Virus record (IMG/VR): IMGVR_UViG_3300033182_000943
Location: 1-63,597 of that record
DNA: 63,597 bases
Origin: a virus
Lineage: Duplodnaviria; Caudoviricetes
Reading direction: 5' to 3' (one strand)
The first letter of the stretch is position 1. Each line of letters starts with the position of its first letter. Shown here piece after piece: positions 9,863 to 31,722 of the stretch. A model generated the notes under the pieces. It was not told the origin of the DNA, did not search any database, and saw only the letters and a program-made list of their open reading frames with translations. A program made the translations under genes and the position numbers.

Positions 9863-10063
9863 ATGATAATAATTAAGAAAGGGCCAAAGGATTCAATTGA
9901 TAAGATGCTTAAGAAGTATAAGCGTAAGTCTATTCGATGCGGATTGCTTAAACAAGTTAGAGAAAGGCAAGAGTACGAAAAGCCTTCATCCGTAAAAAGA
10001 AAGAAAAAGGCAAAGGCGGTTTATCGTCAGAAGATTAATTCTGATAGAGAAAAAAGATCGTAG
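9863..10063 (+). CDS. rpsU: ribosomal protein bS21 (phage-encoded)
   Basis: SIDKMLKKYKRK...GLLKQVRERQEYEKPS..KR. Confidence 0.9.
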   Translation: MIIIKKGPKDSIDKMLKKYKRKSIRCGLLKQVRERQEYEKPSSVKRKKKAKAVYRQKINSDREKRS

Positions 10064-10106
10064 AAAATTTTCAATTCCCAAATTAATTTGTTATATTTAA
10101 ACTATA
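10061..10106 (+). promoter_or_regulatory. class I promoter
   Basis: TAGAAAATTTTCAATTCCCAA...TTATATTTAAACTATA. Confidence 0.7.
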
Positions 10107-10119
10107 AACAACTTCAATT

Positions 10120-10590
10120 ATGGATAAAGACATTGTAATTTTTGACCTTGATGGTACCTTGGCTGATATTGATCAGCGGAGAGAGATTTCCACCAAAGAC
10201 AATGGCAAGATGGACTGGGGCAAGTTTTTTGATCCTACTAACATTTCATTGGACCAACCAAACATTCCAGTAATTAAGACGGCTCAAGCGTTGGCTGACC
10301 AAGGTCTTAAAATTGTTATCTTTTCTGGTAGGAGTAAGGCAACCAAGGATGCAACCAAGGATTGGTTAAATCAATTTGGAGTACCGTTTTCTGTTCTTAA
10401 GATGAGACCGACCGGTAACCAATTTCAATTTATGCCTGATGATAAACTGAAGAAGATGTGGTTGGATGATCTTTTCCCTGGGGATACTAAAGACCGAATT
10501 CTTTGTATCTTTGATGATAGGCAAAAGGTCGTGGATATGTGGAGAGATAACGGTCTCTCTTGTTTTCAAGTTGCACCCGGAGATTTTTAA
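10120..10590 (+). CDS. HAD-family phosphatase (PNKP phosphatase-like)
   Basis: IFDLDGTL, FSGR, MRP, FDDR motifs. Confidence 0.9.
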   Translation: MDKDIVIFDLDGTLADIDQRREISTKDNGKMDWGKFFDPTNISLDQPNIPVIKTAQALADQGLKIVIFSGRSKATKDATKDWLNQFGVPFSVLKMRPTGNQFQFMPDDKLKKMWLDDLFPGDTKDRILCIFDDRQKVVDMWRDNGLSCFQVAPGDF

Positions 10591-10592
10591 TC

Positions 10593-10808
10593 ATGGTAAA
10601 ATTTACATCACAGGATATGAAGCTGCTCGAGGTCTATAAGAATAGATATGTGAGCTTTGGCTTAAGGGAAGGGCAGTCATATATGAATGCTCTATATGAC
10701 ATTAACCCCTCTCTTTATGAGAAGGCATCAGGAACTGATGCTGATTGTTTTTATGTGGATGATAACATCCCGCAATTCCTAAATTTTCTAAATGATGATA
10801 ACGACTAA
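10593..10808 (+). CDS. hypothetical protein
   Basis: LREGQSYMNAL...DCFY; start reassigned to ATG 10593. Confidence 0.7.
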   Translation: MVKFTSQDMKLLEVYKNRYVSFGLREGQSYMNALYDINPSLYEKASGTDADCFYVDDNIPQFLNFLNDDND

Positions 10809-10968
10809 AAAATTGTACCGAGGTAATGGGTACATTGGTGGGGTATGTGCTGGGCTCGGTGAGTGGAGTGGAGTACCTGCAATCTTATGGCGAATTCTTT
10901 TCTTGTTTGTCGCCGGTAGTTTTTGGGCCTATCTATTACTGTGGGTCTTCGTTGAACAAAAAGATTAA
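10792..10968 (+). CDS. pspC: PspC-domain membrane protein (58 aa)
   Basis: KKLYRGNGYIGGVCAGLGEWSGVPAILWRILF...AYLLLW; absent from the ORF track. Confidence 0.85.
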   Translation: MMITTKKLYRGNGYIGGVCAGLGEWSGVPAILWRILFLFVAGSFWAYLLLWVFVEQKD

Positions 10969-10971
10969 GTT

Positions 10972-11547
10972 ATGTTTTATAAGTGGGACGAAAAAGAACT
11001 GCAGTTTGATAAAGTATGTATGAAAAGAATAACTCTTATTGTAATCACGCTTTCAGCAATCATACTTCTTGCAGGTTACCTTGTGGGAACGTCTGTTAAA
11101 AAGGAAACTGTAGTACAAGAGTTTACTGAGGCTGAGCAGGTTGTACTTATTCAGGAAATTGATACCTTTAGCCAAGAGGCTTTGGTGATTATGCTAAAGG
11201 AACTTAATGTAAAATATCCTCATATAGTATTGGCCCAGTCTATTGTTGAAACTGGTCATTGGACTAGTCACATCTTTTTGGAGAATCATAATCTCTTTGG
11301 TATGAAACAGGCTCGTCGTAGAATTACCACAGCAGATGGTACCTCCAGGAATCATGCTTATTATGGTCATTGGAGAGAATCCGTGTATGATTATGCATTT
11401 TACCAATGTAGGTATTTGTCTAAATTAGACTCAGAGGAAGAGTATTTTCAGTATCTCGGTTCAAGCTATGCGGAGGCACCTAATTATATAGGCTCATTAA
11501 AGACAGTGATCAAAAGAGAAAACTTAAAAGATCTATTTGATGAGTAA
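10972..11547 (+). CDS. glucosaminidase (GH73/FlgJ-like) peptidoglycan hydrolase
   Basis: AQSIVETG, NLFGMK, YAEAPNY; N-terminal TM. Confidence 0.85.
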   Translation: MFYKWDEKELQFDKVCMKRITLIVITLSAIILLAGYLVGTSVKKETVVQEFTEAEQVVLIQEIDTFSQEALVIMLKELNVKYPHIVLAQSIVETGHWTSHIFLENHNLFGMKQARRRITTADGTSRNHAYYGHWRESVYDYAFYQCRYLSKLDSEEEYFQYLGSSYAEAPNYIGSLKTVIKRENLKDLFDE

Positions 11548-12172
11548 GGCTTTTTGTCTAGGCGTGTGGAAAACAGGTACTACTTCGGTAGGTAAGGCTC
11601 TTAATCAATTGATAGGTGGTTATCATGATGGTAATACTGATTGGTCCGATCATAGAGCACTTCATCTTAAAAATATAGTAGATGGAAATACTTCAAAGAT
11701 TGCTAGTCTTAATCATCTAATAAGTAGATATTCAACCTTTGATGATAATCCTTGGAATAGATCCATGGTAATTGAAGAACTTAAAAACTACAAAAAATAC
11801 AAATACATACTTACTACGAGGGATCCTGACGAATGGCATTATAGCGCATATTCATTTTATCGTAAGAAAATGGAAAGAGGAGAGCTTAGTGGTTTTGATA
11901 TTTGGAGTTTGTATCAAGCTGAATTCAAATGGGTGTTAGGTGATTCCGTTGATCTGACACAAGTAGTTGAAGATGATTTTTCAGGAATGGTTAAACATAA
12001 ATCATTTTGGGTTGATTGGTTTAACCAAAGGAATGAAAAGGTTAAAGGGATGTTTAAAGGTAATCTATTAGAGTACAATATATCCGATGGGTTAGGTTGG
12101 GAACCTTTATGTAATTATCTTGGTAAAGAGATTCCAACAAAACCTTTTCCAAGACTTAATAGCCAAAACTAA
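11540..12172 (+). CDS. sulfotransferase-family P-loop protein
   Basis: LGVWKTGTTS, ILTTRDPDEW..S, GWEPLCNYLG..P..PFPRLN. Confidence 0.85.
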   Translation: MSKAFCLGVWKTGTTSVGKALNQLIGGYHDGNTDWSDHRALHLKNIVDGNTSKIASLNHLISRYSTFDDNPWNRSMVIEELKNYKKYKYILTTRDPDEWHYSAYSFYRKKMERGELSGFDIWSLYQAEFKWVLGDSVDLTQVVEDDFSGMVKHKSFWVDWFNQRNEKVKGMFKGNLLEYNISDGLGWEPLCNYLGKEIPTKPFPRLNSQN

Positions 12173-12197
12173 AAAGGAACCTTAAGGTTCCTTTTTT
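12171..12197. terminator. bidirectional intrinsic terminator
   Basis: AAAAAGGAACC-TTAA-GGTTCCTTTTT between convergent genes. Confidence 0.9.
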
Positions 12198-12577
12198 ATC
12201 TCTTCATCAGATTCTACTATGTAGTCATATTTAAGTAAGATAGGTTCTATTGCCTTTTGGACTGCATCTTTTATTTCATCTCTCATCTTAGCATTTGTAG
12301 ATGGACCAAATGCAGCAGGAATCATTTTAGAAAGGACATTCCTCATAAAGATCTTTACCTTTTCGTTAACCTCACCTTCGCTAAGGTTTGAAGTTTTCCA
12401 GTGTGGGCTTTGGTTATCGCCACGGGTAGGGTGTACATCATTAAAGCCTTGATACTCAGGAGTACCAAATGCATTAGTTTCTACACCAGCCATTTCATCC
12501 CAGTAATTCTTAAAGTCTTTTACCGTTCCTTTATAGTGGCGGATTCTACTCAGGTCTTCTCTTTCTTGGTTATCCAT
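12182..12577 (-). CDS. hypothetical protein (possible head-internal protein)
   Basis: 131 aa; third gene of the minus-strand operon. Confidence 0.7.
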   Translation of the reverse strand: MDNQEREDLSRIRHYKGTVKDFKNYWDEMAGVETNAFGTPEYQGFNDVHPTRGDNQSPHWKTSNLSEGEVNEKVKIFMRNVLSKMIPAAFGPSTNAKMRDEIKDAVQKAIEPILLKYDYIVESDEEIKKEP

Positions 12578-12825: not shown

Positions 12826-12827
12826 AA

Positions 12828-13274: not shown

Positions 13275-13291
13275 TACTTTTTTGATTTTTT

Positions 13292-13792: not shown

Positions 13793-14129
13793 TCTTATAC
13801 TTGCTTTTTTACTATTCTTTGCAGGACAATCTCTTATATGGTTTCAATCAAACGGACAATTCGTATGGCCTTGGTTTAAAGAAAATCCTTGGACTGTATC
13901 TATTATCTTTGGTACTGTTGCAAGTTACATATTCATTAAAGCAACAGAGGCCGTGTACACACACTTTAATGGTGTTTTGTGGCCTGGTAGGTTTATAGGT
14001 TTCTCTAGTGGTATCGTAGTCTTTGCCGCATGTACCTATATCTTTATGGGCGAAGGAATAAATGCAAAAACAGTAGTGTCATTAATTTTGGCTATCGCAT
14101 TAGTGTGCGTGCAGATATTTTGGAAATGA
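13785..14129 (+). CDS. four-TM membrane protein, DMT/SMR-like
   Basis: Four hydrophobic helices; YIFMGEGINAK motif. Confidence 0.65.
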   Translation: MNNLILAFLLFFAGQSLIWFQSNGQFVWPWFKENPWTVSIIFGTVASYIFIKATEAVYTHFNGVLWPGRFIGFSSGIVVFAACTYIFMGEGINAKTVVSLILAIALVCVQIFWK

Positions 14130-14938
14130 AAAACCCATATCACATATTAGGTGTTCAAGAAGGTGCTTCGGATGCTGATGTAAAAAAGGCATATAGGAAA
14201 CTGGCCAAAGAGCACCACCCTGATAAAGGTGGAGACGATGCTAAGTTTAAAGAAATTGCAGAAGCATATGATATCTTAAGTGATCCTAAAAAGAAATCAC
14301 AATGGCAAAATAGAACAACCTTTGGTGGTGGTTTTGATGAACAATTCTTTGAAGATTTTTTACGTAACCAAGGTTTTGCCGATGCGTTTAATTCAAGGTA
14401 CGGTTGGAATCAAAACGGTAAAGGCCAAAATGTAACCGCACAGATACATGTTACTTTAGAGGATTCATACTATGGATCAAGTAGAGAAATAAGATTAGGA
14501 CTTAAGACAGTATCGGTTAACATTCCTAAGGGTGTAAAACATGGGCAGAGATTAAGACTTAAAGGGTTAGGTCAAAAGGGAATGACAGAAGACTTACACG
14601 GCGACCTCATCTTAACTATACTGATAGTTGATCATTCCGATTATATGTTAGATAATAGAGGTTTACATAAGATGCATAAAGTAAATCTGTTTGATGCATT
14701 ACTTGGCGGAAAATCCACTATAGAAGTTTTTGATAAGAAGATAATATTTTCAATACCACCCGGTACACAAAATGGTACAATGTTAAGATTACAAGGTAAA
14801 GGGTTTCCAATCTATAATCAAGATAGATGTGGTGATTTATATGTTAACATCATGGTTGATTTACCTAATGATTTGACCGATGAGGAGATCTCTTTAATTA
14901 AACAAGTAAAAGATAAAATAGATGAACGCAAAGGATGA
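14126..14938 (+). CDS. DnaJ-class chaperone without Zn finger (CbpA-like)
   Basis: J domain with HPD; C-terminal DnaJ domains (LRLKGLG, GDLYV). Confidence 0.92.
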   Translation: MKNPYHILGVQEGASDADVKKAYRKLAKEHHPDKGGDDAKFKEIAEAYDILSDPKKKSQWQNRTTFGGGFDEQFFEDFLRNQGFADAFNSRYGWNQNGKGQNVTAQIHVTLEDSYYGSSREIRLGLKTVSVNIPKGVKHGQRLRLKGLGQKGMTEDLHGDLILTILIVDHSDYMLDNRGLHKMHKVNLFDALLGGKSTIEVFDKKIIFSIPPGTQNGTMLRLQGKGFPIYNQDRCGDLYVNIMVDLPNDLTDEEISLIKQVKDKIDERKG

Positions 14939-15170: not shown

Positions 15171-15237
15171 TAACTTTTTAAAAAAAGTCCTAGAAAAATT
15201 TTCAATTCCCAATTATTTGTATTATATTTATACTATA
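15161..15237 (+). promoter_or_regulatory. class I promoter with TTGTTAATAAC box
   Basis: Near-identical to 3132-3209. Confidence 0.75.
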
Positions 15238-15253
15238 ATTAATTAATCGGAAT

Positions 15254-16558
15254 ATGGAAAATTTGACAAAAGACCTTAACTATCTGCAATCCTTCCTGGA
15301 TGAAATGAACGAATCATCCTCAGGTAATCATAAGATTGCTACTATCCGCAAACATACTGATAACGAATTCCTTAAGAAGGTCTTTCACTATACTTATAAC
15401 CACTTTAAGAAGTACGGAGTTCATACAAGAATTCTGAAGAAACACCCTGACTTGGTAGCACCTACCAATAACTACCCTGACCTTTTCCAATTGTTGGACA
15501 ACCTGGCAGATAACAATCTAACTGGTCATGCTGCTATCATGGCGGTTAACTCATTCGTTAACCAACTTCCAACTGACCAACAAAAATTGGTCCACTATAT
15601 TTTAGATAGAGACCTTCGTATGGGAGCCTCTATTACTTCAATCCTTAAAGTACATCCTAACATTGTTCCAGTGTTTAAGGTGGCATTGGCAAATCCTTAC
15701 TCACCAAGCCGAGTGGATTTCGTAAACGAAAGCTGGTACGGTTCACGTAAGTTGGACGGTGTCCGTTGTATTTGCCGTAAAGAAGGTAACACTGTAACTT
15801 TCTATTCAAGGAACGGTAAAGAATTCCTTACCTTGGATCGCATCGCCGATGAGGTACTTAAGGTGCCTGGTAACTTTATCATGGATGGAGAAATCTGTTT
15901 AGTAGACCAAAACGGTAATGAAGACTTCCAAGGTATTATGAAAGAGATCCGCCGTAAGAATCATACAATTGAAAATCCTAAGTTCTTTGTATTTGACTAT
16001 CTAACCCTCGAGGAATTTGATAATCATAGTGGTACCACTCCGTTGTCTACAAGGCTTCGCAATGGCTATGACAATCTTCCTGAAAACATTAACTCTGACC
16101 GATTGGATTTTCTACCTCAAATGGAAATTAATACCGAGGAAGAATTTACTGAAATGGCCAAAGATGCTGAGATTAATGGATTTGAAGGTATCATGGTCCG
16201 TAAAGATATCGGATATGAAGGTAAGAGAAGCCATAACCTTCTGAAGGTAAAAAAATTCCATGACGAGGAATACACGGTATTGGAATGTGTCAATGGTACT
16301 ATCCGATGGACTGAGGATGGACAACAGGTAGAAAAAGACTGTCTAAGCAGTATCATTATTGAACATAAAGGTTACCGAGTATCGGTAGGATCTGGTTTCT
16401 CAAAGGAACAACGAGAGTATTACCTTACTCGCCATGATGAACTCATCGGTAAGACTGTAACGGTTCAATACTTTGAAGAAACTCAAAACCAAATGGGTGG
16501 CTATTCCCTCCGCTTCCCGGTTGTAAAACACATATATGAGAACGGTCGAGATTGTTAA
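15254..16558 (+). CDS. ATP-dependent DNA ligase
   Basis: KLDGVR adenylation motif, DGE, EGIMVR, LLKVK, SLRFP. Confidence 0.95.
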   Translation: MENLTKDLNYLQSFLDEMNESSSGNHKIATIRKHTDNEFLKKVFHYTYNHFKKYGVHTRILKKHPDLVAPTNNYPDLFQLLDNLADNNLTGHAAIMAVNSFVNQLPTDQQKLVHYILDRDLRMGASITSILKVHPNIVPVFKVALANPYSPSRVDFVNESWYGSRKLDGVRCICRKEGNTVTFYSRNGKEFLTLDRIADEVLKVPGNFIMDGEICLVDQNGNEDFQGIMKEIRRKNHTIENPKFFVFDYLTLEEFDNHSGTTPLSTRLRNGYDNLPENINSDRLDFLPQMEINTEEEFTEMAKDAEINGFEGIMVRKDIGYEGKRSHNLLKVKKFHDEEYTVLECVNGTIRWTEDGQQVEKDCLSSIIIEHKGYRVSVGSGFSKEQREYYLTRHDELIGKTVTVQYFEETQNQMGGYSLRFPVVKHIYENGRDC

Positions 16559-16618: not shown

Positions 16619-17206
16619 ATGAAGCTATATGAAGGATACAACAAAAATAAAAGCATCACCATATTTGACGTGGATGATACCCTTGTTGTAACCAAGAGTA
16701 AGATAAAGGTTTATAACCCTAAGACTGGTTTCTCTACGGAGCTTACACCGCAAGAGTTCAATACCTTTCAACAAAGACCTAATGACAAGATGGATTTTTC
16801 GGATTTTCAAAATCCTAATATTCTTAAAGGTGGTCTGATCATTGAATGGGTATTTGAAATTTTAAAAAGAACAATTGCAAAAGGTCAACCTGTAGGTATT
16901 ATAACTGCTAGAGATAGTGCCGACCTTATCTATGATTTTCTCTCACATCATGGGGTTCATATTGATCCTCAATATATCTTTGCAATTAATGATCCTAGTT
17001 TAGGCTTCACAGGATCTACCGCAGAAAAGAAAAAAGAAGCCTTTATGAAATTCGTATCAATGGGATTCAGAAACTTTAAGTTCTTTGATGATGACAAAGA
17101 AAATGTTAACATAGCCAAAAAATTGGCAAGAGAGAATAAGGACATAAGAATGGATGCCACATTAATCAAACAAAAATGGATTCCAAAGTTCAACGACTTC
17201 AGTTAA
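16619..17206 (+). CDS. HAD-superfamily hydrolase
   Basis: IFDVDDTL, ITAR, FFDDDKEN. Confidence 0.85.
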   Translation: MKLYEGYNKNKSITIFDVDDTLVVTKSKIKVYNPKTGFSTELTPQEFNTFQQRPNDKMDFSDFQNPNILKGGLIIEWVFEILKRTIAKGQPVGIITARDSADLIYDFLSHHGVHIDPQYIFAINDPSLGFTGSTAEKKKEAFMKFVSMGFRNFKFFDDDKENVNIAKKLARENKDIRMDATLIKQKWIPKFNDFS

Positions 17207-18278: not shown

Positions 18279-21194
18279 ATGGCATTTAATTTAAAAGAAT
18301 ACATTCTTTATAGAACCGAGATTAACCGTGAGCTTTTTAATAGTGAAGTTGACACTAACTTTAAAAGTGTTGCTAATCCATGGGTAGAAGAAAGAGTGTA
18401 TGAGGAAGGTAATATCGTATATCATCCAGTCACTGTTGAATTAGCAACAGGATCCGAGGAGGAGGCCTTAGCATGGTGGAGAGCAAACCAAAGAACAACG
18501 CAAGGTTCATTTGACACCAATGAATGGGACCTTATTGGAGGTATAGGTACTGGTGATATTACCATAGGTGCCCAACCTGGATTCGGAAAGATCGTTGTTA
18601 ATTACACTGGAACTACAGGTACTTTCCAAGCAGGCAATGATGCTGTTCTATCTGCAACGGTTCCTAATGATACCACTAGGCTTATAGGCGGTGCGGGTAT
18701 TAATCTGCAATATGATACCACAACAAATACAGTTAAGATAATTAATTCAGGTTCTGTTGGTGAAGCAAATCATGGAGTTAATATAGGTGTTGGCGGCCAG
18801 GATGTTTATGCAGGTTTAGATGGAACCGATTTAGAGTTTAGAGGATTTGATGTTAATGCTTCAAGTAGTCCTGCATTAACAATATCTTTAGATGCTACAA
18901 ATAATAATATTGAATACGGACTAAGTGAAGGAGCAATAAGCTTGGCTAACTTAGACGGTGGATCTCCTACCATTACAGATCTTTCTGACGTATCATCAAC
19001 ACCTCCTACAAATAATTACATTCTTCAGTGGAATAGTGGTACAGGTCTTTGGACTCCAGTAAGTGTTGCTTCATCAGGTGCACAAGGTCCTCAAGGTTAC
19101 CAAGGTTACCAAGGTTACCAAGGACTTACTGGTTCTGGTGCTACTGGTGCTACTGGTGTAGCCGGCCCACAAGGTAATACTGGTGGATCTGGGGCAACTG
19201 GACCTATAGGATATACTGGAGCAACCGGTTCTGGTGCTACTGGGGCAACCGGTCCACAGGGATTTGATGGAGAGCAAGGAAATGTTGGTGCCACTGGTTC
19301 TGGTGCTACTGGGGCAACCGGTCCTGCTGGGACTGGAGCAACTGGAGCAACTGGTCCTGCTGGGACTGGTGCCACTGGAGCAACTGGTCCTGCTGGGACT
19401 GGAGCAACTGGAGCAACTGGTCCTGCTGGGACTGGTGCCACTGGAGCAACTGGTCCTGCTGGGACTGGTGCCACTGGAGCAACCGGTCCTGTTGGTGCAA
19501 CTGGTGCTGGTTCCATTGGAGCAACCGGTAATCAGGGTGATCCTGGTTCTATTGGAGCAACTGGGGCTCAGGGTGATACTGGGTTTACTGGAGCAACTGG
19601 CTCTGGTTCCATTGGAGCAACTGGGGCTCAAGGTGATACTGGGTTTACTGGTTCAACTGGAGCCCAAGGAGATACGGGATTTACTGGTTCAACCGGAGCC
19701 CAGGGTGATACCGGGTTTACTGGTGCCACTGGATCTGGTCTCACTGGAGCTACTGGAGCCCAGGGCGATACCGGGTTTACTGGTGCCACTGGATCTGGTC
19801 TCACTGGAGCTACTGGAGCCCAGGGTGATACCGGGTTTACTGGAGCCACTGGTGCCCAAGGGAATATTGGAGCCACTGGAGCCCAAGGAGATACCGGGTT
19901 TACCGGTTCAACTGGAGTGCAAGGTGATACAGGATTTACTGGAGCTACTGGTTCTGGTCTCACTGGAGCAACTGGGGCACAAGGTGATACCGGGTTTACT
20001 GGTGCCACCGGATCTTCTGGAGCCCAAGGATTTACAGGTGCAACTGGAGCCCAAGGTGATACAGGATTTACCGGTTCAACTGGGTCTTCTGGGGCCCAAG
20101 GATTTACCGGGTTCACTGGAGCTACTGGCGTAAAAGGATTTACTGGAGCTACTGGAGCACAGGGATTTACTGGAGCTACTGGAGCACAGGGTAACGATGG
20201 TGGTATTGGTGCCGATGGTTCAAATGCACTTAGATGGGAATTTGGTGGTGTTTCAATATCTAATCCACCGTCAGGAGAATTTTATGCTAATAATGTAAAC
20301 ACTGGCGGTGTTGGATCTTTTAATATTAGTTATGATGATACAAACTCAACTAACGTAAGTACATGGCTTTCTAATTTGGAAGCAGGTGATACTCTTGCTA
20401 TTTACCAATTAGACAACACTTCACAGTTTGGAATTTATATAGTCAATTCAGTCACAGACGTTCCGGCTGATAGTTACTATACAATTACTTTTAGCTCGGT
20501 GGTTGCTTCTAGCGGATCATTTAGTATTGGTGAAACGTGGTCCATTTCTTATAACAAAGCCGGTAATACTGGAGCTACTGGGTTAACTGGAGCTACTGGG
20601 GCGCAAGGTGCTACTGGTGGTTCAAGTACACTAGGTAAAGAAAATCCTATAGCAGAAACATCAATCTATATTCAGGGTGGACTTCCAGTTGTATCAACAT
20701 ATGCGGTCTGCGGTCGGAACACTGATGGGGGCTGGTCTCAAAACTGGACCGCTGCTAGTGGACAGATAAATTCAAGTACCTTGAGATTAAGTTATGATTA
20801 TTCTAATGCTGCAATTAATCTGATAGATGATCTCCAGGCGGACCAGGCAATATATGTTAGATATAAAATTACATGGCCACATGTTGGCGGTACCAGCGGT
20901 GATATAGGAATTCGTGCATTTAAACATACGTGCGGTGATGATGATGGTGCTGGGTCCATGAACATTCAAAATATAAATTCAGCAGGATATACTTCATCCA
21001 CCACGGTTTATGATGGTAGTGGTAATTGGGCAACCGATTGTGGAGTGGCTGTATTACCGTTGACCCAAGTGGTTACTGCTTCTACCGATAGAATCTTTAT
21101 AGGTTTTGCTGTAAATGTATCTGAAAGAGAATTGCAAACCGCTAACATTCAACTTTCATGGAAGGCATGGGTAGATGATGCCCCAGTTCCGTAA
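18279..21194 (+). CDS. collagen-like repeat fibre protein
   Basis: Long Gly-X-Y tract (GAT/GFT/GAQ/GDT) flanked by globular domains. Confidence 0.85.
19078..20210 (+). repeat. collagen-coding tandem repeats (33-bp and 60-bp units)
   Basis: [11 protein letters not shown] about 5 times; [20 protein letters not shown] repeated at 60-bp period. Confidence 0.9.
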
Positions 21195-25791: not shown

Positions 25792-27285
25792 ATGTCAGCT
25801 GTAGATAGAAACATATTAACGGTCATTGAACCGACAATCGTATTGGATGAATTGGCGATACCTGATTTTGAAAGCGGTAGCGATAACCAGGTTGGTGATG
25901 GTGAACCTCCTATGGTTGAAAAGGGTTCAAAGTTTAGTACTATGATACCTCTCATTAGAGTAAATCAATATGAAATACAGGGTGATAGATTGGAGATGTT
26001 TGAGCTGAGTTGTACAGGCTTTTATCCAACATGTAGATTTTCTTTTTATGACAGGGATGGTTTATTTACTGCTAGACATTACCCCAAAGACGGGGACATT
26101 ATCCAACTTAATATTAGATCACAAGGTGAAGAAACTACATTTAAGCCTATAAGAATTGATTTTACGATTGAAGATATTAAACCAATGGGAGGTGGTGGAT
26201 CTACTAACTCTTCTTCACAACTTATGATAAGCGGTAGAATGCATGTACCTAATCTATTTACAGAAAAGGTTCAGTTCCAAGATAACACCAGTTGGAATTC
26301 ATTACTTTCAATTGCAGAAGAACTCCAATTAGGATATGCATCAAATGTTGAAGATACTGATGACCAACAGATATGGACTAATCCGTATGACACTGCATAT
26401 AAGTTTATGCAAGACATTACTGCAAATAGTTACCTAAACGATGATTCGTTTTTTACTTCGTATATAGATCCTTATTATTACTTAACTATGGTTGATGTAA
26501 ATAAGTTATTTGATAATGAAGACCAGGACCTAGAAGCAGTAAAAGCCTTTTTACAAAATGCACCTGATACTATTGGAAGAAATGACGGAGACGATTCAGA
26601 TTTTGATGCACCTTACTTTTTAAGTAGCCTTACTCAATATCAAGGTACTGCAAATTACATTTCAAAATATCAGCAGGTTAATAAGAGTGGTCAAATTTCA
26701 AAAAACAATGGATATAAAAGATATACTCAGTATTGGGATTTAGAAGCAAAGGAATTTATTAGTGAGTTTGTTGATCCTATAGTTGGTGATACACCAGGTA
26801 TGGTACCGGCAACTAAAGGAAGGTTGGTACAAGGGGAAGTAGAAGGACCGAGAAATGATCAAGTAAAGTTTAAGTACTTAGGGACACAGGGTGATAATGT
26901 ACATGCTAATTATTACTATGGTTCTATTCTTAACTATCAAAATATGCAAGAGATTGAAAAGTTTGGAATGGAATTAGAGTTAGATACAATTAACCCATCC
27001 ATTTTTAGGTACAGTAGAATATATGTTGAAATTATTGAAACTGCAACAAATGTTAAGAGTGTTTTAACTGGACCTGATAATGATGACAATGTTCCAGAAG
27101 ATGCGCAAAGAAGGCAGGATAAAGATCCTGAGGTTACTGCTGATAAGACGAGTGACACAGGAATAAAGAATGAATACTTATCAGGTTTTTATGTCATAAC
27201 AGGAATTGAATATATTTTAACAAAACCTGGTGGTGTTAGACAGAGACTTCATTTAAGAAGGCGAGAAGTGGTTCCAACAACATAA
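25792..27285 (+). CDS. putative baseplate hub (gp27-like)
   Basis: C-terminal LSGFYVITGIEY; genomic context. Confidence 0.6.
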   Translation: MSAVDRNILTVIEPTIVLDELAIPDFESGSDNQVGDGEPPMVEKGSKFSTMIPLIRVNQYEIQGDRLEMFELSCTGFYPTCRFSFYDRDGLFTARHYPKDGDIIQLNIRSQGEETTFKPIRIDFTIEDIKPMGGGGSTNSSSQLMISGRMHVPNLFTEKVQFQDNTSWNSLLSIAEELQLGYASNVEDTDDQQIWTNPYDTAYKFMQDITANSYLNDDSFFTSYIDPYYYLTMVDVNKLFDNEDQDLEAVKAFLQNAPDTIGRNDGDDSDFDAPYFLSSLTQYQGTANYISKYQQVNKSGQISKNNGYKRYTQYWDLEAKEFISEFVDPIVGDTPGMVPATKGRLVQGEVEGPRNDQVKFKYLGTQGDNVHANYYYGSILNYQNMQEIEKFGMELELDTINPSIFRYSRIYVEIIETATNVKSVLTGPDNDDNVPEDAQRRQDKDPEVTADKTSDTGIKNEYLSGFYVITGIEYILTKPGGVRQRLHLRRREVVPTT

Positions 27286-27306
27286 AATAAATAAAATAAA
27301 CCTAGT

Positions 27307-28734
27307 ATGCCCTTAGTAGATTTAGCAAACCCTTTAAATAGTGGAGGCCTTAGACAATTGGCCGGACCATTTGGTGATGTATTTGGGCCAGGTGATCAAT
27401 TTCCTAATTCATATGAGTTCGGTAAAAGATTTGTTTCTACTGCCTCATCTGTATCAGGTGGAGGTAACGGTGTTACTAGTTTAGATGACCCGACATATTT
27501 AGGGTTTCAGATTAGATTTGATGGTATGAGTCCTCTATTTAACGGAGCAGAGATAGGGTCTACAGAACCTCCTGTCAACCAGGTACCATCAATTGCAGAT
27601 TTAGCAGCACAAGAGTTAGGATTTATAAATGGAAACCCTGATGATACTACTAATGCTAATTCAGGGAGCCATCCATCGGGTGAGTCTGCTGTAGGTTACT
27701 TGGAAAAGGTAGGTGAAGCAAACAGAGCTAATTATCTTAGATCATTTGTACAAGGTATTAGACACATAGAGAGAACTAGGCCTTATTATTTTCAAACCAT
27801 TGAAGGGCTATCGGAAGCATGGAACAAAACCGTTAATATGGTTGATCCTTATGGTGGAGCTGCCGAAGGCGAAGGAATTACGATAGGATTGCTTGAAGCT
27901 ATCGACCTAAAAATGTCAGCTCTATTTAGTCTTTATAAATTGGCATGTTATGACACTAGGTACAAAAGAACAGTTTTACCTATTAACCTAATGTACTTTA
28001 ATGTTGATGTTGATGTATTTGAAATTAGAAAATTTAAAACAGTTAGAAATTGGTTAGCTGCTCTTAATCTTAGCGATACTTCACCAGATACAATTAACTT
28101 CGTAAATGAAAATACTTCAAAGATTACCTTTAGATTTGAAGAATGTAAATGGGATCCTACCCAAACCGGAGTTATATTTGGTAATGTTACAAATGCAGGT
28201 GGAAATGCCATGGCCGTCAGTTCTATGAAATGGAGTTATGGGAGAGTTTTAATGGATTCCCAATTCTCAGGTTACAACTCAGCTCTTAAAGATGCAGCGC
28301 AACAAAAACCTGAATCACCTACATTAAAGAATGCAGTTAAAAACTTTGCAAAAGATCAATTAGCAAATGCAGCTAAAGGGGCTGTGAATAATTTACAAAG
28401 AGGGTTATCTTCAAAGTTTCAAAGTTTTGCTTTAGGTAATGTATTTGGTTTAAGAAATCAAATATTTAATGCAATACAAAATCCACAAGCAGTATTAAGT
28501 GCTGCACAAGGTGCATTGGTTCAAACCGAGCAAATAGGTGGTGATTTAGCTAAAATAAATAGGCTAGGAGATAATCCATTGGGTGAAGCAGTACAACCGC
28601 CTAACTCATTACCTACTGATAATATAAACGCAGGACAGATCCCATCGGATCCTAGTCCTTTAAGTTCTAATAATATATTTGGGCGTGGACCATCAGGACC
28701 CGCCCCTCTTGAATCTAATAATGTATTTGAATAA
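27307..28734 (+). CDS. putative baseplate tail-tube initiator/cap (gp48/gp54-like)
   Basis: Located between hub and spike; beta-rich core. Confidence 0.45.
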   Translation: MPLVDLANPLNSGGLRQLAGPFGDVFGPGDQFPNSYEFGKRFVSTASSVSGGGNGVTSLDDPTYLGFQIRFDGMSPLFNGAEIGSTEPPVNQVPSIADLAAQELGFINGNPDDTTNANSGSHPSGESAVGYLEKVGEANRANYLRSFVQGIRHIERTRPYYFQTIEGLSEAWNKTVNMVDPYGGAAEGEGITIGLLEAIDLKMSALFSLYKLACYDTRYKRTVLPINLMYFNVDVDVFEIRKFKTVRNWLAALNLSDTSPDTINFVNENTSKITFRFEECKWDPTQTGVIFGNVTNAGGNAMAVSSMKWSYGRVLMDSQFSGYNSALKDAAQQKPESPTLKNAVKNFAKDQLANAAKGAVNNLQRGLSSKFQSFALGNVFGLRNQIFNAIQNPQAVLSAAQGALVQTEQIGGDLAKINRLGDNPLGEAVQPPNSLPTDNINAGQIPSDPSPLSSNNIFGRGPSGPAPLESNNVFE

Positions 28735-29621
28735 TGGGAAGATTAAGTGCAAGAGACCTAGCATCTGATAGTTTAAGAGGTACCCAATGGGTTGGGGTGG
28801 TTGAAGATACTGAAGACGAACTTTTTGAAGGAAGGGTTCGCTTAAGAGTTTTTGGTAAGATGGATCAAAGAGTAGACCCAGAGGATCCTGAGAGTGATTA
28901 TGTAATGCCTACAGCTGCATTACCTTGGGCAAGGCCTTCTGTTGCATCTTCCGGTGGAAGCAATAGTGGAAGTGGAACCTTTTCGGTTCCTAAGATAGGT
29001 ACTATAGTTAGGGTTACTTTTGATAACGGAAATTACTATTCTCCAGTTTATCATGAAAGCTTATATCCTTCAGATGAGCTGAAGGCTGAAATAGAAGCAT
29101 CATATCAGAATTCTCATGTACTTATTTACGATACCGCCTTTGGTTTAACTGGCGGTGGTAATGAAGAAGTTACTAATGAAAGAGAAGGTGAAAGTATAAA
29201 GGTTTTCTTTACTGAGGAAAAGGGACTAATGATGGATTATACCACAACGGAAGGTCCTACTACAGTTAACATTAAGCCTGATAATTCTGTTGAAATAATA
29301 AATGCAAACGGGGATTCAATTGTAATGCTTAATGATGGTAACATTACATTTACACATTCCGCAAAATTCATAATTAATAGTACTGATAACACAGAGATTA
29401 ATTGTAAGGATGCAATTATTAATTGCCAAAATACTATTATTAATCATTCATCATCAATTGAATTAGGCCAAGGTGCTAGCGAAAAGATCATATTAGGTGA
29501 TACCTTTATGAAGTTCTTTAATCAACATACACATGTTGGAAACCTCGGGGCTCCTACCTCGCCTCCTATAGTACCTATGTCTCCTGCACAACTTAGTAAG
29601 AAGAACGTCAAATCTCTATAA
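28734..29621 (+). CDS. baseplate central spike (gp5/VgrG-like)
   Basis: WVGVVED..D..EGRVRLRVFG, LPWA, VPKIG OB fold; beta-helix repeats; HTH tip. Confidence 0.88.
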   Translation: MGRLSARDLASDSLRGTQWVGVVEDTEDELFEGRVRLRVFGKMDQRVDPEDPESDYVMPTAALPWARPSVASSGGSNSGSGTFSVPKIGTIVRVTFDNGNYYSPVYHESLYPSDELKAEIEASYQNSHVLIYDTAFGLTGGGNEEVTNEREGESIKVFFTEEKGLMMDYTTTEGPTTVNIKPDNSVEIINANGDSIVMLNDGNITFTHSAKFIINSTDNTEINCKDAIINCQNTIINHSSSIELGQGASEKIILGDTFMKFFNQHTHVGNLGAPTSPPIVPMSPAQLSKKNVKSL

Positions 29622-29645
29622 ATATATAAACTAATAAATTAAACT

Positions 29646-29933
29646 ATGGCACTAGTACCTCCAACTCTACAAGAATCATTAACAGCTGCTTATGCGGCGG
29701 CATTAACAGACTTCATTGCAGTCATTAAAGCTAACCCACTAGGAACCGATGCAGGCGCCGCGAACTTAACAGCAGCTGTCGCATCTTCATCTGTGATATT
29801 TGGTAAGTTATCCGGAACTGCAATTGATGCATATATTAGATCTGCACAGGTTGCACCAGGCCAGGTTGTTACAACTGCGGGTACCGCTGTTGCCCAGACT
29901 GGTGCTACAACAACCCCAGGTGTTCTGGTATAA
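29646..29933 (+). CDS. small structural protein (possible spike tip)
   Basis: Directly after the spike gene; Ala/Thr-rich. Confidence 0.55.
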   Translation: MALVPPTLQESLTAAYAAALTDFIAVIKANPLGTDAGAANLTAAVASSSVIFGKLSGTAIDAYIRSAQVAPGQVVTTAGTAVAQTGATTTPGVLV

Positions 29934-29958
29934 AACAATTTGCTTTCATAATATATAA
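29933..29958 (+). promoter_or_regulatory. class II promoter AAAC-N17-TATAA
   Basis: Motif match upstream of the bS1-like gene. Confidence 0.6.
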
Positions 29959-29990
29959 TCTATATAGTTCAACTCTTTAAACAAAAAATA

Positions 29991-31154
29991 ATGATCGAAC
30001 AAGAAATTACGATCCAATTAAGCGACGATCCGTTTGACACAAAAACAATTAAAGTCCTAGTTCCACCAGGAACCAAAATTTTATCCACAGAGCCTTATGT
30101 AGCCGATGTACTTGAAATGTACAGTCTTTCAGAATCTGTAGAAAAGCAACTTCATTTATGCGAGGATATGCAAAGCTATACCACCCAAGGCGAAATAGTT
30201 GGATTTTCATTAGATAAAGAAGGTAATAAAACTACCGCAATAATTGACTTAGGAACTAAGTACACTGCAATATGTCATTTATTGAAAGAACCTAAACACA
30301 TAGTAGAACAATTAGAAGAAGGTATTGTTGTAGATGTTAAAGTTAAGCCTGGTAAAAATGGAAATGTTATAGCTTCAATCTCAGATGCAATAGATGAAGT
30401 TAAGATGAAGGAAATTATGAATGCTATTGGTGATAAGACCATAGGATTCACTGGAAAGGTTACCGAGCTGTTACATGGTGGTTACTGGGTTGAGGTTGGT
30501 GGTATACAATGCTTTATGCCAGGTTCTCTAGCAGGCCTTAATAAGTTATACGATTTTAACTCTTTAGTTGGAAAGGAAATTATAGTTATGCCAATATCTT
30601 ATTCTGATGAAAAGAATACGATTATTGTTTCTCATAGAGAATACTTAAGAACTTTAATTCCTAGCGCAGTTGAATCGGCTAGAGAAAATATCAAAGATCA
30701 TATAACCGGGTTTGTTACAGGTACTACTAAGTTTGGTATATTTGCTGAGTTTAATGAATGCTTAACAGGTCTTATTCCATTATCTGACGTAGATGAAGAT
30801 ACATTAACCAAGTTTAATAATAGAGAGATTAAGCCAGGTGATGATATCAGTTTCTGGATTAAAGAAATTATCACCGAAAGAAAAATTATCTTATCTCAAA
30901 CCGGTCCTAAAGAAAACATCTGGGATGATGCTAATGATAAGTATAAGCCTATGATGATTACACCCGGTAAAGTTACAAAGGTTACTAAATACGGAGCCTT
31001 CGTTGAACTAGAAAAAGGTATCAGCGGATTAATTCATAAATCTAAACTTAAAGAAATTGAGTTAACTAAAGGTGATGTTGTTAATGTAAAAATACAAAGC
31101 ATCAATGCAAGTGATAGAAAGATAACTATGAATCTAGCTGAAAGTGAAGGGTAA
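29991..31154 (+). CDS. rpsA: ribosomal protein bS1-like protein (about four S1 domains)
   Basis: GGYWVEVGGIQCFMPGS, KFGIFAEF..LTGLIPLS, GKVTKVTKYGAFVELEKGISGLIHKS. Confidence 0.85.
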   Translation: MIEQEITIQLSDDPFDTKTIKVLVPPGTKILSTEPYVADVLEMYSLSESVEKQLHLCEDMQSYTTQGEIVGFSLDKEGNKTTAIIDLGTKYTAICHLLKEPKHIVEQLEEGIVVDVKVKPGKNGNVIASISDAIDEVKMKEIMNAIGDKTIGFTGKVTELLHGGYWVEVGGIQCFMPGSLAGLNKLYDFNSLVGKEIIVMPISYSDEKNTIIVSHREYLRTLIPSAVESARENIKDHITGFVTGTTKFGIFAEFNECLTGLIPLSDVDEDTLTKFNNREIKPGDDISFWIKEIITERKIILSQTGPKENIWDDANDKYKPMMITPGKVTKVTKYGAFVELEKGISGLIHKSKLKEIELTKGDVVNVKIQSINASDRKITMNLAESEG

Positions 31155-31722
31155 AGAGAAACTTATAATAAACGATGAAAGGATCGTCTACGCAGATCCT
31201 AGCTCAGCTAGCTTAGGTCAAGGAACTATGGTTATGATGCGGTGGGAGGACGAGATCATGAGGTTAAGCTCAAAATGGGTAACTTATAATCAAGGTGATA
31301 TTTTGGAGTTTGGTTTTGGTATGGGATTATCTGCTGGTCATATACAATCATATAAACCAAAAAGTCATACTATAATTGAAATACACCCTGAGATTGCAAA
31401 GAAAGCTGAAGAATGGGCAAAGGATAAACCTGGGGTTAAAATCATAAATGCAGATTGGTGGGATGTAAAGGATGATTTGGAAATGTATGATGGTATATTT
31501 TTTGATACATTTAATGATCGCCATGAACCCGACTGGTTTAAGGTAGCCCAGAGTAAATCAAAGCCAAACTGCCACATATCATTTTATAATAACAGGCCGT
31601 ATAGAGGTAATGCATACGGCATAGAAGTGGTTGACTATATTCACAAGAGAGTTATGCCACCTAAGAATGACTATTACTGGTACACCAATTATTATGTACC
31701 TTTGGTTATTCATAATCCATAA
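31144..31722 (+). CDS. class I SAM-dependent methyltransferase, Rmt2/GAMT-like
   Basis: VMMRWEDEIM, ILEFGFGMG, HTIIEIHP, DWWD, YDGIFFDTF. Confidence 0.85.
   Translation: MKGKEKLIINDERIVYADPSSASLGQGTMVMMRWEDEIMRLSSKWVTYNQGDILEFGFGMGLSAGHIQSYKPKSHTIIEIHPEIAKKAEEWAKDKPGVKIINADWWDVKDDLEMYDGIFFDTFNDRHEPDWFKVAQSKSKPNCHISFYNNRPYRGNAYGIEVVDYIHKRVMPPKNDYYWYTNYYVPLVIHNP

What the first reader, a model, noticed from the sequence alone, without database searches (positions are those of the whole stretch)
9863..31722. Candidate translation-takeover system
Seen together: bS21, a four-domain bS1, an Rmt2-like methyltransferase coupled to bS1, nine tRNAs, SD-less A-rich leaders, hairpin-gated late start codons and an early-mRNA CGGA tag. 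Established: bS1 and bS21 both sit at the 30S platform that selects mRNAs. Inference: middle-phase remodelling of the 30S platform makes ribosomes prefer unstructured A-rich late phage leaders. Phage bS1 and bS21 are reported separately; I do not know of the integrated circuit being described.
Basis: inference. Interest (0 to 1): 0.7.

Follow-up and report, generated by a model that had tools for sequence, protein, structure and literature searches.

The report
Phage ribosomal proteins S21 and S1
A fragment of a large marine phage carries its own copies of two ribosome proteins (bS21 and a short bS1) and nine tRNAs, a known kind of phage translation toolkit, but these parts are scattered genes, not the integrated switch that was proposed.

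Summary
The main parts are real. bS21 lies at 9863-10063. A four-domain bS1 homologue lies at 29991-31154. A GAMT/Rmt2-type methyltransferase (31144-31722) overlaps the S1 stop. Nine tRNAs are present, but at 6555-9849, outside the stated span. Leaders lack Shine-Dalgarno motifs and are A-rich.

Three linking claims fail or shrink:
- The A-rich, SD-less leaders occur on early and late genes alike. Their A peaks at -13/-12 match the pattern published for Flavobacterium, so they look like the host norm.
- "Hairpin-gated" late starts are not supported. Start regions are less structured than coding sequence, and late starts do not differ from the others.
- "CGGA" is part of a ~55-nt promoter/leader repeat. 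It occurs in 4 of 5 copies, and only one copy with CGGA lies in the span.

The methyltransferase is accessory cargo. It follows S1 in 1 of 27 related loci, and 79 of 80 loci holding its family have no S1 nearby.

S1 is a fixed gene of the baseplate module (27 of 27 loci). bS21 follows the tRNA array in 3 of 3 relatives that reach that far. Across phages at large, S1 and S21 occur independently.

The takeover model joining S1, S21, tRNAs and absent SD was published in 2020. Verdict: a new member of a known kind, of moderate-to-low interest.

The parts
6555..9849 (+). Array of nine tRNA genes with small ORFs between them: Ile-UAU, Asn-GUU, Tyr-GUA, Trp-CCA, Val-UAC, His-GUG, Leu-UAA, Arg-UCU, Gly-UCC. 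It lies outside the stated span.
   Evidence: ARAGORN and Rfam RF00005, 52-71 bits. Relatives hold 6-7 tRNAs at the same place, sharing Ile-UAU, Leu-UAA, Arg-UCU and Gly-UCC.
9863..10063 (+). Ribosomal protein bS21 (66 aa). It starts 13 nt after tRNA-Gly, has no SD, and has Tyr at position 54.
   Evidence: The gap-free alignment to F. johnsoniae bS21 (7jil_z, residues 3-61) places Tyr54. For the role of Tyr54 see PMC7797042.
29950..29957 (+). AATATATA box 41 nt upstream of the S1 start. It resembles a late promoter (inference).
   Evidence: 8 of the 9 + strand copies lie 22-41 nt upstream of a start codon. The total count is not enriched: 12 against 11 expected.
29991..31154 (+). Short bS1 homologue (387 aa): an N-terminal extension plus S1 domains D1-D4. 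It is a fixed gene of the baseplate module.
   Evidence: Synteny. Predicted docking on uS2.
31144..31722 (+). GAMT/Rmt2-type SAM methyltransferase (192 aa). Its GTG start overlaps the end of S1. It is accessory cargo in the slot between S1 and the amidoligase-like gene.
   Evidence: Distribution.
31761..33059 (+). Amidoligase_2-like protein (432 aa). It is the neighbour that always accompanies S1.
   Evidence: Pfam PF12224, E 6e-4, below the cut-off. Atlas clusters are 100% viral. S1 lies directly upstream in 27 of 27 loci.
15199..15256 (+). One copy of the repeated early/middle promoter-leader element (TTTTCAATTCCCAA ... TTATATTTATACTAT ... AATCGGAATATG), ahead of the DNA ligase gene. It is the only copy with CGGA inside the span.
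   Evidence: Conserved in relatives.
10068..10122 (+). A copy of the same promoter-leader element directly after bS21, ahead of the PNKP-phosphatase gene. It has no CGGA.

Best explanation
The window is about a quarter of a jumbo myovirus genome (roughly 215-280 kb). The host very probably belongs to the Bacteroidota, probably Flavobacteriia, whose ribosomes ignore Shine-Dalgarno sequences.

The phage carries three separate translation-support modules:
- A tRNA array that reads A-ending codons.
- A bS21 gene placed at the 3' end of that array.
- About 20 kb away, inside the baseplate gene block, a shortened bS1 (domains D1-D4 plus a phage-specific N-terminal extension).

Most likely mechanism (inferred): bS21 and bS1 are the loosely bound, exchangeable proteins of the 30S platform. 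The phage copies enter host ribosomes and keep them fully equipped while host gene expression is taken over. bS21, with its Tyr54, would keep the anti-SD sequestered. bS1 would capture A-rich leaders. Initiation on the SD-less, A-rich, weakly structured leaders of all phage genes would then stay efficient, above all during mass production of virion proteins. The tRNAs serve the ATA, TTA and AGA codons, which are enriched in the structural genes. This is supply and maintenance of a host-type initiation mode. No switch of mRNA preference is shown.

The Rmt2/GAMT-type methyltransferase is an accessory gene dropped into a variable slot behind S1 in one sub-lineage. It is expressed by coupling to S1, and its substrate is unknown.
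For: SHOWN
- Identity of the parts: bS21; four-domain S1. D2 carries the bS1-D2-like CFMPGSL motif aligned to E. coli AFLPGSL. The aromatic RNA-binding positions of D3 and D4 are invariant in 29 homologues.
- Docking on uS2: the complex model of S1 residues 1-150 with F. johnsoniae uS2 scores 0.77 (three runs: 0.77, 0.78, 0.77), with the best of 3 controls at 0.00. The runs agree in at least 93% of contacts, and the partner pLDDT is at least 85. The mark was reached by 58 of 80 solved complexes and 2 of 110 mismatched pairs; the tool warns these counts hold only roughly with my own alignment. A bS1-uS2 complex has been solved, so this pass shows likeness, not binding.
- Genome size: CheckV rates related contigs of 36-72 kb as 13-26% complete. 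S1 homologues lie on contigs of up to 215 kb.
- Host type: 2 of 60 genes have an SD core, and A peaks at -13/-12 (0.73/0.75). This matches the F. johnsoniae motif at -14..-11, which that paper places near S1 (PMC6847099 section 15). The bS21 matches include F. johnsoniae 7jil_z as second-best PDB match, with Tyr54 (PMC7797042). A related phage contig is binned in a Flavobacteriaceae MAG.
- Lineage conservation: S1 lies directly upstream of the amidoligase-like gene in 27 of 27 loci found through that gene. The same synteny occurs in the 462-kb phage LR756500.1. S21 is found in 3 of 5 related records; the other two end before that position. tRNA arrays precede S21 in all three.
- Codon link: ATA 0.37 against 0.20, TTA 0.50 against 0.26, AGA 0.72 against 0.39 in the structural block against the other genes.

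FROM PAPERS (passages read)
- F. johnsoniae ribosomes lacking bS21 or its C-terminus formed barely any dipeptide on SD-less mRNAs. Added bS1 doubled initiation on an SD-less mRNA (PMC9976891).

OTHER
- The phage bS21 gene has no SD, whereas many Flavobacteriia rpsU genes carry a strong one used for autoregulation (PMC7797042).
Against: - No expression, incorporation or activity data exist for this phage. No RNA run holding the stretch was listed.
- The host is inferred, not shown.
- The S1 gene's fixed place among baseplate genes, far from bS21 and the tRNAs, is not what a dedicated translation module would predict. It leaves room for a non-ribosomal or virion-linked role.
- S1 scores far below every NCBIfam rpsA equivalog cut-off (130-148 bits against 368-624 for the five best-scoring).
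- The complex prediction may pass from memory of solved bS1-uS2 structures. It also used a stand-in uS2.
- 'Supply' and 'selectivity' cannot be told apart from sequence.
Confidence: 0.55

Rival explanations
1. Selective takeover. Phage bS21 and phage S1 replace the host proteins and change the platform so that phage mRNAs, especially late ones, are preferred over host mRNAs.
For: - The phage S1 differs from a six-domain host-type bS1. It has four domains and a strongly conserved N-terminal extension of about 47 aa. In the complex model, residues 25-58 contribute contacts to uS2.
- The phage bS21 differs from F. johnsoniae bS21 at positions 23 and 28. Chen 2022 names these among the divergent sites (PMC9723584).
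- S1 lies behind a late-promoter-like box within the structural block.
- The phage bS21 lacks the SD used for host autoregulation (PMC7797042).
Against: - No feature separates late from other leaders: A fraction 0.53 against 0.50, p=0.37; fold energy p=0.44.
- The leader pattern is the one published for host genes, so no discriminator is visible.
- Tyr54 is kept, which suggests the host-like mode of anti-SD sequestration.
- S1 and S21 occur independently in other phages.
Confidence: 0.2
2. The S1 protein works mainly off the ribosome. It could be an RNA chaperone or a cofactor for a phage RNA-processing, replication or regulatory activity, as host S1 serves T4 RegB and the Q-beta replicase. 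Alternatively it could be a protein packaged or assembled with the baseplate and delivered at infection.
For: - It holds a fixed position between the baseplate hub and the amidoligase-like/adaptor-like genes in 27 of 27 loci. The same holds in a 462-kb phage at 43% identity and in a MAG-binned contig.
- No translation gene is adjacent to it.
- Known extraribosomal uses of S1 by phages are listed in PMC13157829 (passages).
- Chen 2022 raise virion packaging for bS21.
- Al-Shayeb 2020 say S1 may act 'on or off the ribosome'.
Against: - The domains are collinear with bS1 D1-D4, including the D2 signature of the ribosome-binding half.
- The D1-D2 pair superposes on ribosome-bound bS1 (9guq_B, TMt 0.71).
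- Docking on uS2 is predicted (0.77, best control 0.00), though this may come from memory of solved structures.
Confidence: 0.15
3. The methyltransferase is functionally tied to S1. It would methylate an arginine of phage S1 or of a ribosomal protein, as yeast Rmt2 does on Rpl12 R67, and so tune the ribosome.
For: - Its start overlaps the S1 stop in both genomes that have it: GTG with an 11-nt overlap in the window, and TAATG in L001.
- It has no promoter-like box of its own.
- It has the GAMT/Rmt2 fold. The residues aligned to GAMT positions 45 and 134 are invariant in 34 family members. Asp134 is the proposed catalytic base (PMC12471008).
- Rmt2's substrate is a ribosomal protein (PMC10265986 table).
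Against: - It is present behind S1 in only 1 of 27 related loci and 1 of 10.
- Of the best 80 of 466 viral stretches encoding this family, 79 have no S1 and 80 have no S21 in the held flanks of up to 10 kb.
- Its usual neighbours are a giant fibre-like protein (at -1 in 57 loci) and a 250-aa protein (at +1 in 59 loci).
- The same slot holds unrelated cargo in other relatives: a 135-aa ORF, a 332-aa repeat protein, and small ORFs.
Confidence: 0.07

Closest known systems
Phage-encoded bS21 of Bacteroidota-infecting large phages (Chen et al. 2022, PMC9723584; Mizuno et al. 2019)
   Same: A small bS21 (66 aa) that passes the family cut-offs. Among solved structures it is second-closest to F. johnsoniae bS21, and it keeps Tyr54, as 54 of 61 phage bS21 do in Chen 2022. 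The phage is large and its genes lack SD motifs.
   Different: Here bS21 is not among the capsid/terminase genes on the reverse strand, as in Chen's clades. It sits at the end of a tRNA array, 13 nt after a tRNA in the window and in one relative. It has no N-terminal extension of the kind Al-Shayeb 2020 describe.
Candidate rpS1 of huge phages (Al-Shayeb et al. 2020, PMC7162821), e.g. LR756500.1
   Same: A multi-S1-domain protein in phages that rarely have SD motifs. It is 43% identical over 95% of its length to the LR756500.1 protein, with the same hub - S1 - amidoligase-like - adaptor-like gene order.
   Different: That paper could not confirm 'true' rpS1. Here domain-by-domain collinearity (D1-D4), the fold match to ribosome-bound bS1 and a controlled uS2 docking model are added. 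LR756500.1 lacks S21.
Cellular bS1 (E. coli six-domain form; Firmicutes four-domain form)
   Same: The order of OB domains, the D2 signature, RNA-binding aromatic residues in D3/D4, and a predicted uS2 contact through the N-terminal part and D1.
   Different: It has only four domains and an added conserved N-terminal segment of about 47 aa. It scores far below all rpsA equivalog cut-offs. It is encoded inside a baseplate gene block.
Guanidinoacetate N-methyltransferase / yeast Rmt2 (type IV protein arginine methyltransferase)
   Same: The fold (TMq 0.84 to human GAMT), the SAM motif GxGxG, and conserved acidic residues aligned to GAMT positions 45 and 134. Some source annotations of homologues read 'type IV protein arginine methyltransferase'.
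   Different: It consists of the catalytic domain only (192 aa), with no solved or tested substrate. In marine viruses the family was reported as a 'GAMT' auxiliary metabolic gene for creatine synthesis (PMC11360552). Its usual place beside fibre-like structural genes does not obviously fit that reading.
T4-type phage tRNA arrays matched to late-gene codon use (general knowledge, recalled)
   Same: The tRNAs read A-ending codons. ATA, TTA and AGA are 1.8-1.9 times more used in the structural block.
   Different: Nothing unusual, apart from the bS21 gene attached to the 3' end of the array.

Membership tests
Ribosomal protein bS21 (Pfam PF01165 / TIGR00030) | Score above the curated family cut-offs over the whole domain | tested here: met
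   PF01165: 40.6 bits against 27. TIGR00030: 44.5 against 28.95. 29 PDB bS21 sequences matched.
Ribosomal protein bS21, Bacteroidota type | An aromatic residue (Tyr54) that stacks on the 16S 3' tail to sequester the anti-SD | tested here: met
   The gap-free alignment of residues 3-61 to 7jil_z residues 3-61 puts Tyr at 54. Role of Tyr54: PMC7797042. Whether it acts this way in the phage protein is untested.
Ribosomal protein bS21 | Incorporation into the 30S subunit | not testable with these tools
   Needs ribosome purification and mass spectrometry.
Ribosomal protein bS1 (rpsA) | Score above the NCBIfam rpsA equivalog cut-offs | tested here: not met
   Best scores are 147.9 bits (NF000907, cut-off 624), 132.6 (NF004952, 524), 129.8 (NF005208, 368) and 129.5 (TIGR00717, 577). 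The protein is therefore a bS1 homologue, not a standard equivalog.
Ribosomal protein bS1 (rpsA) | Tandem S1/OB domains collinear with bS1 D1, D2, D3, D4 ... | tested here: met
   Query 153-384 aligns to E. coli 108-348, and 62-384 to M. smegmatis 31-364. The model has four OB barrels. The top Foldseek hits are bS1 on 30S.
Ribosomal protein bS1 (rpsA) | Binding to uS2 through the N-terminal segment and D1 | tested here: inconclusive
   The complex model with F. johnsoniae uS2 scores 0.77 against a best control of 0.00. This is a model only, with a stand-in partner, and a like complex has been solved.
GAMT / RMT2-type methyltransferase | Class I SAM-methyltransferase fold closest to GAMT | tested here: met
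   pLDDT 94.9. Foldseek: 3orh TMq 0.84, E 1.8e-13; the first non-GAMT hit is at 2.4e-7. phmmer against 1xcj: 3.6e-10.
GAMT / RMT2-type methyltransferase | Acidic residues that hold and deprotonate the guanidino group (GAMT Glu45, Asp134) | tested here: met
   E35 and D121 align to chain positions 45 and 134 of 1xcj_A and are invariant in 34 family members. Role of Asp134: PMC12471008. Role of Glu45: recalled, not checked in a call.
GAMT / RMT2-type methyltransferase | Methylation of a guanidino nitrogen (arginine in a protein, or guanidinoacetate) | not testable with these tools
   Needs an enzyme assay.
Integrated phage translation-takeover system (as proposed) | The components co-occur and are co-inherited | tested here: not met
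   The methyltransferase is with S1 in 1 of 27 loci and without S1 in 79 of 80 loci. S21 is absent from LR756500.1 although S1 is present. Within this lineage, S1 (27 of 27) and S21 (3 of 3 records that reach far enough) are both kept, but 20-22 kb apart.
Integrated phage translation-takeover system (as proposed) | Late mRNAs carry a distinguishing leader (A-rich, hairpin-gated) | tested here: not met
   late and other genes do not differ, and there is no excess structure at starts.

The most novel reading that the evidence does not exclude
In this abundant marine jumbo-phage lineage, the two exchangeable 30S platform proteins are both phage-supplied and deliberately wired differently from the host's.
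- bS21 is released from a tRNA precursor transcript with a leader of about 13 nt and no SD, so it would be blind to the host's SD-based autoregulation.
- A short bS1 carries a phage-specific N-terminal clamp onto uS2. It is made with the baseplate genes and would displace the six-domain host bS1.

Together they would build a phage-type platform that favours phage messages late in infection. In one sub-lineage, an Rmt2-type arginine methyltransferase translationally coupled to S1 would add a further modification of S1 or of the platform.
Probability: 0.12. Interest if true: 0.7.

Novelty: new member of a known kind. Interest (0 to 1): 0.3.

Why it matters
Phage-encoded ribosomal proteins are known from metagenomes, but none has a demonstrated effect on which mRNAs are translated.

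This lineage offers a compact test case:
- It is abundant in marine data: 2054 S1 homologues at E <= 1e-10, the best 120 at 63-95% identity.
- It keeps both bS21 and a clearly bS1-like protein.
- It appears to infect hosts whose SD-independent initiation has a working biochemical assay (F. johnsoniae ribosomes, PMC9976891).

The phage proteins can be tested against that assay for either topping up ribosomes or redirecting them. As it stands, the finding adds anatomy to a published hypothesis and does not amount to a new system. The added points are the fixed place of S1 in the baseplate block, bS21 at the end of a tRNA array, and the variable cargo slot behind S1.

Tried and rejected
- Nearest phage genome: megablast of 9000-32000 against the phage collection found no match.
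- Close methyltransferase relatives in viral contigs: none with the single protein. The alignment A2 then found 466 stretches.
- Expression data: the look-up of sequencing runs on 27000-33000 listed 21 runs and no RNA holder, with the best DNA holder at 0.27 of the words. No reads were laid, so nothing can be said on expression or habitat from this.
- A T4-lysozyme-like gate, meaning a late promoter inside a hairpin that hides the AUG on read-through transcripts. Stems that pair the AUG with or near the AATATATA box exist at the starts at 23441, 31761 and 33961 (-8.0 to -8.1 kcal/mol). Their z-scores are only -0.83 to -1.40, and 19-45 of 200 shuffles fold as well. Across nine relatives, RNAalifold chose a different stem upstream of the amidoligase-like gene, one that encloses the box and leaves the AUG free. 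I rejected this as a class feature; it remains open for single genes.
- CGGA as a residual SD: rejected, because it ends 1-3 nt before the AUG, too close for SD pairing (general knowledge).
- The amidoligase-like neighbour has no PDB sequence match and only viral Atlas clusters, so its role stays open.
- The genome-contig scan with the S1 alignment gave only two phage-like contigs inside MAGs and no cellular rpsA. The cellular origin of the phage S1 was therefore not traced.
- Supplementary tables of Al-Shayeb 2020 and Chen 2022 (lists of S1/S21 phages and RBS motifs) could not be seen. They may already list relatives of this phage.

Full report
WHAT THE WINDOW IS
The window is a whole virus record of 63.6 kb. 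Nearly all genes are on the + strand and G+C is about 35%. PHROGs and Pfam give T4-like replication and structural genes:
- gp32-like SSB, primase, UvsY-like protein, helicase and GroES at 58-63 kb;
- baseplate wedge and hub proteins, and a collagen-like fibre.

Related IMG/VR contigs of 36-72 kb are rated 13-26% complete. S1 homologues lie on contigs of up to 215 kb. The phage is therefore a jumbo phage of roughly 215-280 kb, and the window is about a quarter of it. Megablast found no close genome in the phage collection.

THE PARTS: CHECKED

bS21 (9863-10063)
- It passes both curated cut-offs.
- Among solved structures it is second-closest to F. johnsoniae bS21 (7jil_z; the closest chain, 9i5v_9, is not identified by organism in the output). 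The alignment has no gaps and puts Tyr at position 54.
- In F. johnsoniae, Tyr54 stacks on A1534 of the 16S 3' tail and helps to sequester the anti-SD (PMC7797042, passages).
- Chen 2022 found Tyr54 in 54 of 61 phage bS21 (PMC9723584, passages).

S1 protein (29991-31154)
- It aligns to E. coli bS1 residues 108-348 (domains 2-4) at 6.4e-34, and to other bS1 from their residue ~31 onwards.
- The AlphaFold2 model (mean pLDDT 78.7) has four OB barrels after an N-terminal hairpin-and-helix part.
- Its best structural matches are ribosome-bound E. coli bS1.
- It fails every NCBIfam rpsA equivalog cut-off. I call it a short bS1 homologue, not a standard rpsA.
- A controlled complex prediction of residues 1-150 with F. 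johnsoniae uS2 scored 0.77 in the median of three runs, with the best of 3 controls at 0.00. The runs agreed in at least 93% of contacts and the partner pLDDT was at least 85. The mark was reached by 58 of 80 solved complexes and 2 of 110 mismatched pairs; these counts hold only roughly with my alignment. A bS1-uS2 complex has been solved, so this shows likeness, not binding.

Methyltransferase (31144-31722)
- It has a confident model (pLDDT 94.9).
- The model is closest by far to guanidinoacetate N-methyltransferase: TMq 0.84, E 1.8e-13, with the next fold at 2.4e-7.
- E35 and D121 align to GAMT positions 45 and 134 and are invariant in 34 homologues.
- Asp134 is the proposed base of GAMT (PMC12471008, passages).
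- Yeast Rmt2 methylates Rpl12 R67 (PMC10265986, table row).
- 'Rmt2-like' is thus a fair name for the fold. The substrate is unknown.

tRNAs
- The nine tRNAs are real, but lie at 6555-9849, just outside the stated span.

LEADERS
- Of 60 confidently placed genes, 2 have a 4-mer SD core at -20..-4, against 12.3% of coding 17-mers.
- A reaches 0.73/0.75 at -13/-12.
- This is the pattern reported for F. johnsoniae genes: A at -14..-11, above all -12/-13, a region the authors place near S1 (PMC6847099, section 15 read).
- Late-block genes (n=29) and the others (n=31) do not differ in A content: 0.53 against 0.50, p=0.37.
It is not a late-phage mark.
- One of the 60 genes was entered one base off (2095 for 2094).

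HAIRPINS
- Start windows are much less structured than internal coding windows: -4.17 against -8.82 kcal/mol, p=6e-18.
- Late and other starts do not differ (p=0.44).
- The AUG is paired no more often than internal ATGs: 0.52 against 0.53.
- Of 13 late start windows folded against 200 shuffles each, none has z below -2.
- Three starts (23441, 31761, 33961) can pair with or near the upstream AATATATA box, which recalls the T4 lysozyme gate. The stems are within chance, and relatives favour another fold.

CGGA
- The tetramer is part of a bipartite promoter/leader repeat: TTTTCAATTCCCAA, about 10 nt, TTATATTTATACTAT, 8-13 nt, AAACGGA(A)TATG.
- The repeat is found five times, ahead of the genes starting at 1456, 2094, 3228, 10120 and 15254.
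- Four copies have CGGA. Only one of these (15248) lies in the span.
- The element is conserved ahead of orthologous genes in relatives, where CGGA is in 1 of 3, 1 of 4 and 1 of 3 copies.
- It is a promoter-linked leader motif of some early/middle genes, not a general tag.

DO THE PARTS BELONG TOGETHER?

Within the lineage:
- All ten loci found through S1 share the order hub, small ORF, S1, amidoligase-like gene, adaptor-like gene, wedge.
- In the non-circular test, 28 loci were found through the amidoligase-like gene. 27 hold at least 1400 nt upstream, and all 27 have S1 directly upstream.
- The same order occurs in the 462-kb phage LR756500.1, where S1 is 43% identical, and in a phage-like contig binned in a Flavobacteriaceae MAG.
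- S21 was found in 3 of 5 related records, 20-22 kb upstream of S1 as in the window. The two records without it end before that point.
- In all three, S21 follows a tRNA array. It follows by 13 nt in the window and in G002, and by about 0.9 kb in G003 and G005.

The methyltransferase behaves differently:
- It follows S1 in 1 of 10 loci and 1 of 27 loci. Both are the same contig, where its ATG overlaps the S1 stop as TAATG.
- In 22 of the 28 loci (21 of the 27 with enough upstream sequence), S1 is followed after 44-50 nt by the amidoligase-like gene. In others the slot holds a 135-aa ORF, a 332-aa repeat protein or, in LR756500.1, several small ORFs.
- The family is common in viral contigs (466 stretches). 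Of the best 80 loci, 79 have no S1 and none has S21 in the held flanks.
- Its usual neighbours are a giant fibre-like protein and a 250-aa protein.
- Marine viral 'GAMT' has been reported as an auxiliary metabolic gene (PMC11360552, passages).

Across phages at large:
- Of the five huge-phage genomes with the best S1 matches, four have S21. LR756500.1 does not.
- Only LR745206.1 has the methyltransferase, 31 kb from its S1.
- Chen's bS21 phages are described without S1 (0 occurrences).
- PhiMa05 has bS1 and other ribosomal proteins with no mention of bS21.
- So S1 and S21 are co-kept in this lineage but are not an obligate pair. The methyltransferase is independent of both.

HOW IT MOST LIKELY WORKS
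Shown:
- the identities of the parts;
- their conservation;
- the host-type leaders;
- a codon link. ATA, TTA and AGA, read by the conserved phage tRNAs Ile-UAU, Leu-UAA and Arg-UCU, are 1.8-1.9 times more used in the structural block than elsewhere.

From papers (passages read):
- F. johnsoniae ribosomes without bS21 or its C-terminus barely initiate on SD-less mRNAs.
- Added bS1 doubles initiation on one SD-less mRNA.
- bS1 is sub-stoichiometric on purified ribosomes (PMC9976891).

Inferred:
- The phage supplies the two exchangeable platform proteins and scarce tRNAs. This keeps ribosomes competent for SD-independent initiation on its A-rich leaders while it takes over the cell. Demand peaks when structural proteins are made.
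- The phage bS21 has no SD, so it would escape the SD-based autoregulation proposed for host rpsU.
- Whether the phage proteins also bias ribosomes toward phage mRNAs is open. Nothing in the leaders points to a discriminator.

COMPARISON WITH WHAT IS KNOWN
- Al-Shayeb 2020 (passages read) already present a single model in which phage S1, S21, tRNAs and other factors intercept translation. They report that huge phages with candidate rpS1 rarely have SD motifs.
- Chen 2022 propose late-stage preferential translation through phage bS21 in Bacteroidetes hosts.
- No paper in the library holds bacteriophage, Rmt2 and arginine methyltransferase together.
- This window adds three things: a better-founded bS1 assignment, the fixed baseplate-module position of S1, the tRNA-bS21 junction, and the variable cargo slot behind S1.

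VERDICT
The finding is a new member of a known kind. Interest is 0.3.

Noticed in passing
window 31155-31760; L106 3507-4000; L125 2953-4000; L098 7081-8346: The gap between S1 and the amidoligase-like gene is a variable cargo slot. It is 44-50 nt in 22 of 28 loci. Elsewhere it is filled by the methyltransferase, a 135-aa ORF, a 332-aa repeat protein, or several small ORFs.
   Followed up: partly
L015-L094 (loci of the methyltransferase family): The GAMT/Rmt2-type methyltransferase family usually lies just after a giant fibre-like protein (at -1 in 57 loci) and before a conserved 250-aa protein (at +1 in 59 loci), in structural regions of marine phages. This suggests a virion-protein substrate and fits poorly with creatine synthesis.
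   Followed up: partly
window 31761-33059: A viral Amidoligase_2-like protein with a Cys-rich repeat C-terminal half always accompanies S1 (27 of 27 loci, plus LR756500.1 and L104). Its role is unknown, and a functional tie to S1 was not tested.
   Followed up: partly
window 9849-9863; L095 4529-4543: bS21 starts 13 nt after the 3' end of a tRNA (Gly in the window, Pro in the relative), with a similar A-rich spacer. tRNA processing would leave a bS21 mRNA with a very short leader.
   Followed up: partly
window 10120-10590, 15254-16558, 16619-17206: A PNKP-type phosphatase, an ATP-dependent ligase and a polynucleotide-kinase-like protein lie near the tRNA array. Together they could form an RNA or tRNA repair set.
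   Followed up: no
window 14030-14938 and 58568-58855: The phage encodes a full DnaJ (J domain plus C-terminal domain) and a GroES-like co-chaperonin.
   Followed up: no
window 1-6000: This stretch has higher G+C (0.41-0.46 against about 0.35), several - strand ORFs and different codon use. It may be a region of different origin.
   Followed up: no
window 18279-21194: A 971-aa collagen-repeat tail fibre gene stands out with G+C of 0.46.
   Followed up: no
L002 11176-11215 and like relatives: Directly after the S1 stop, a stem (ATCCTGGTTT ... AAATCAGGAT) encloses the late-promoter-like box GGAATATATAAAC in its loop. The stem is not kept in the window or in L001, where the methyltransferase is inserted.
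   Followed up: partly
window 11537-12172: A sulfotransferase (Sulfotransfer_4, E 5e-31) lies next to a glucosaminidase-type lysin.
   Followed up: no
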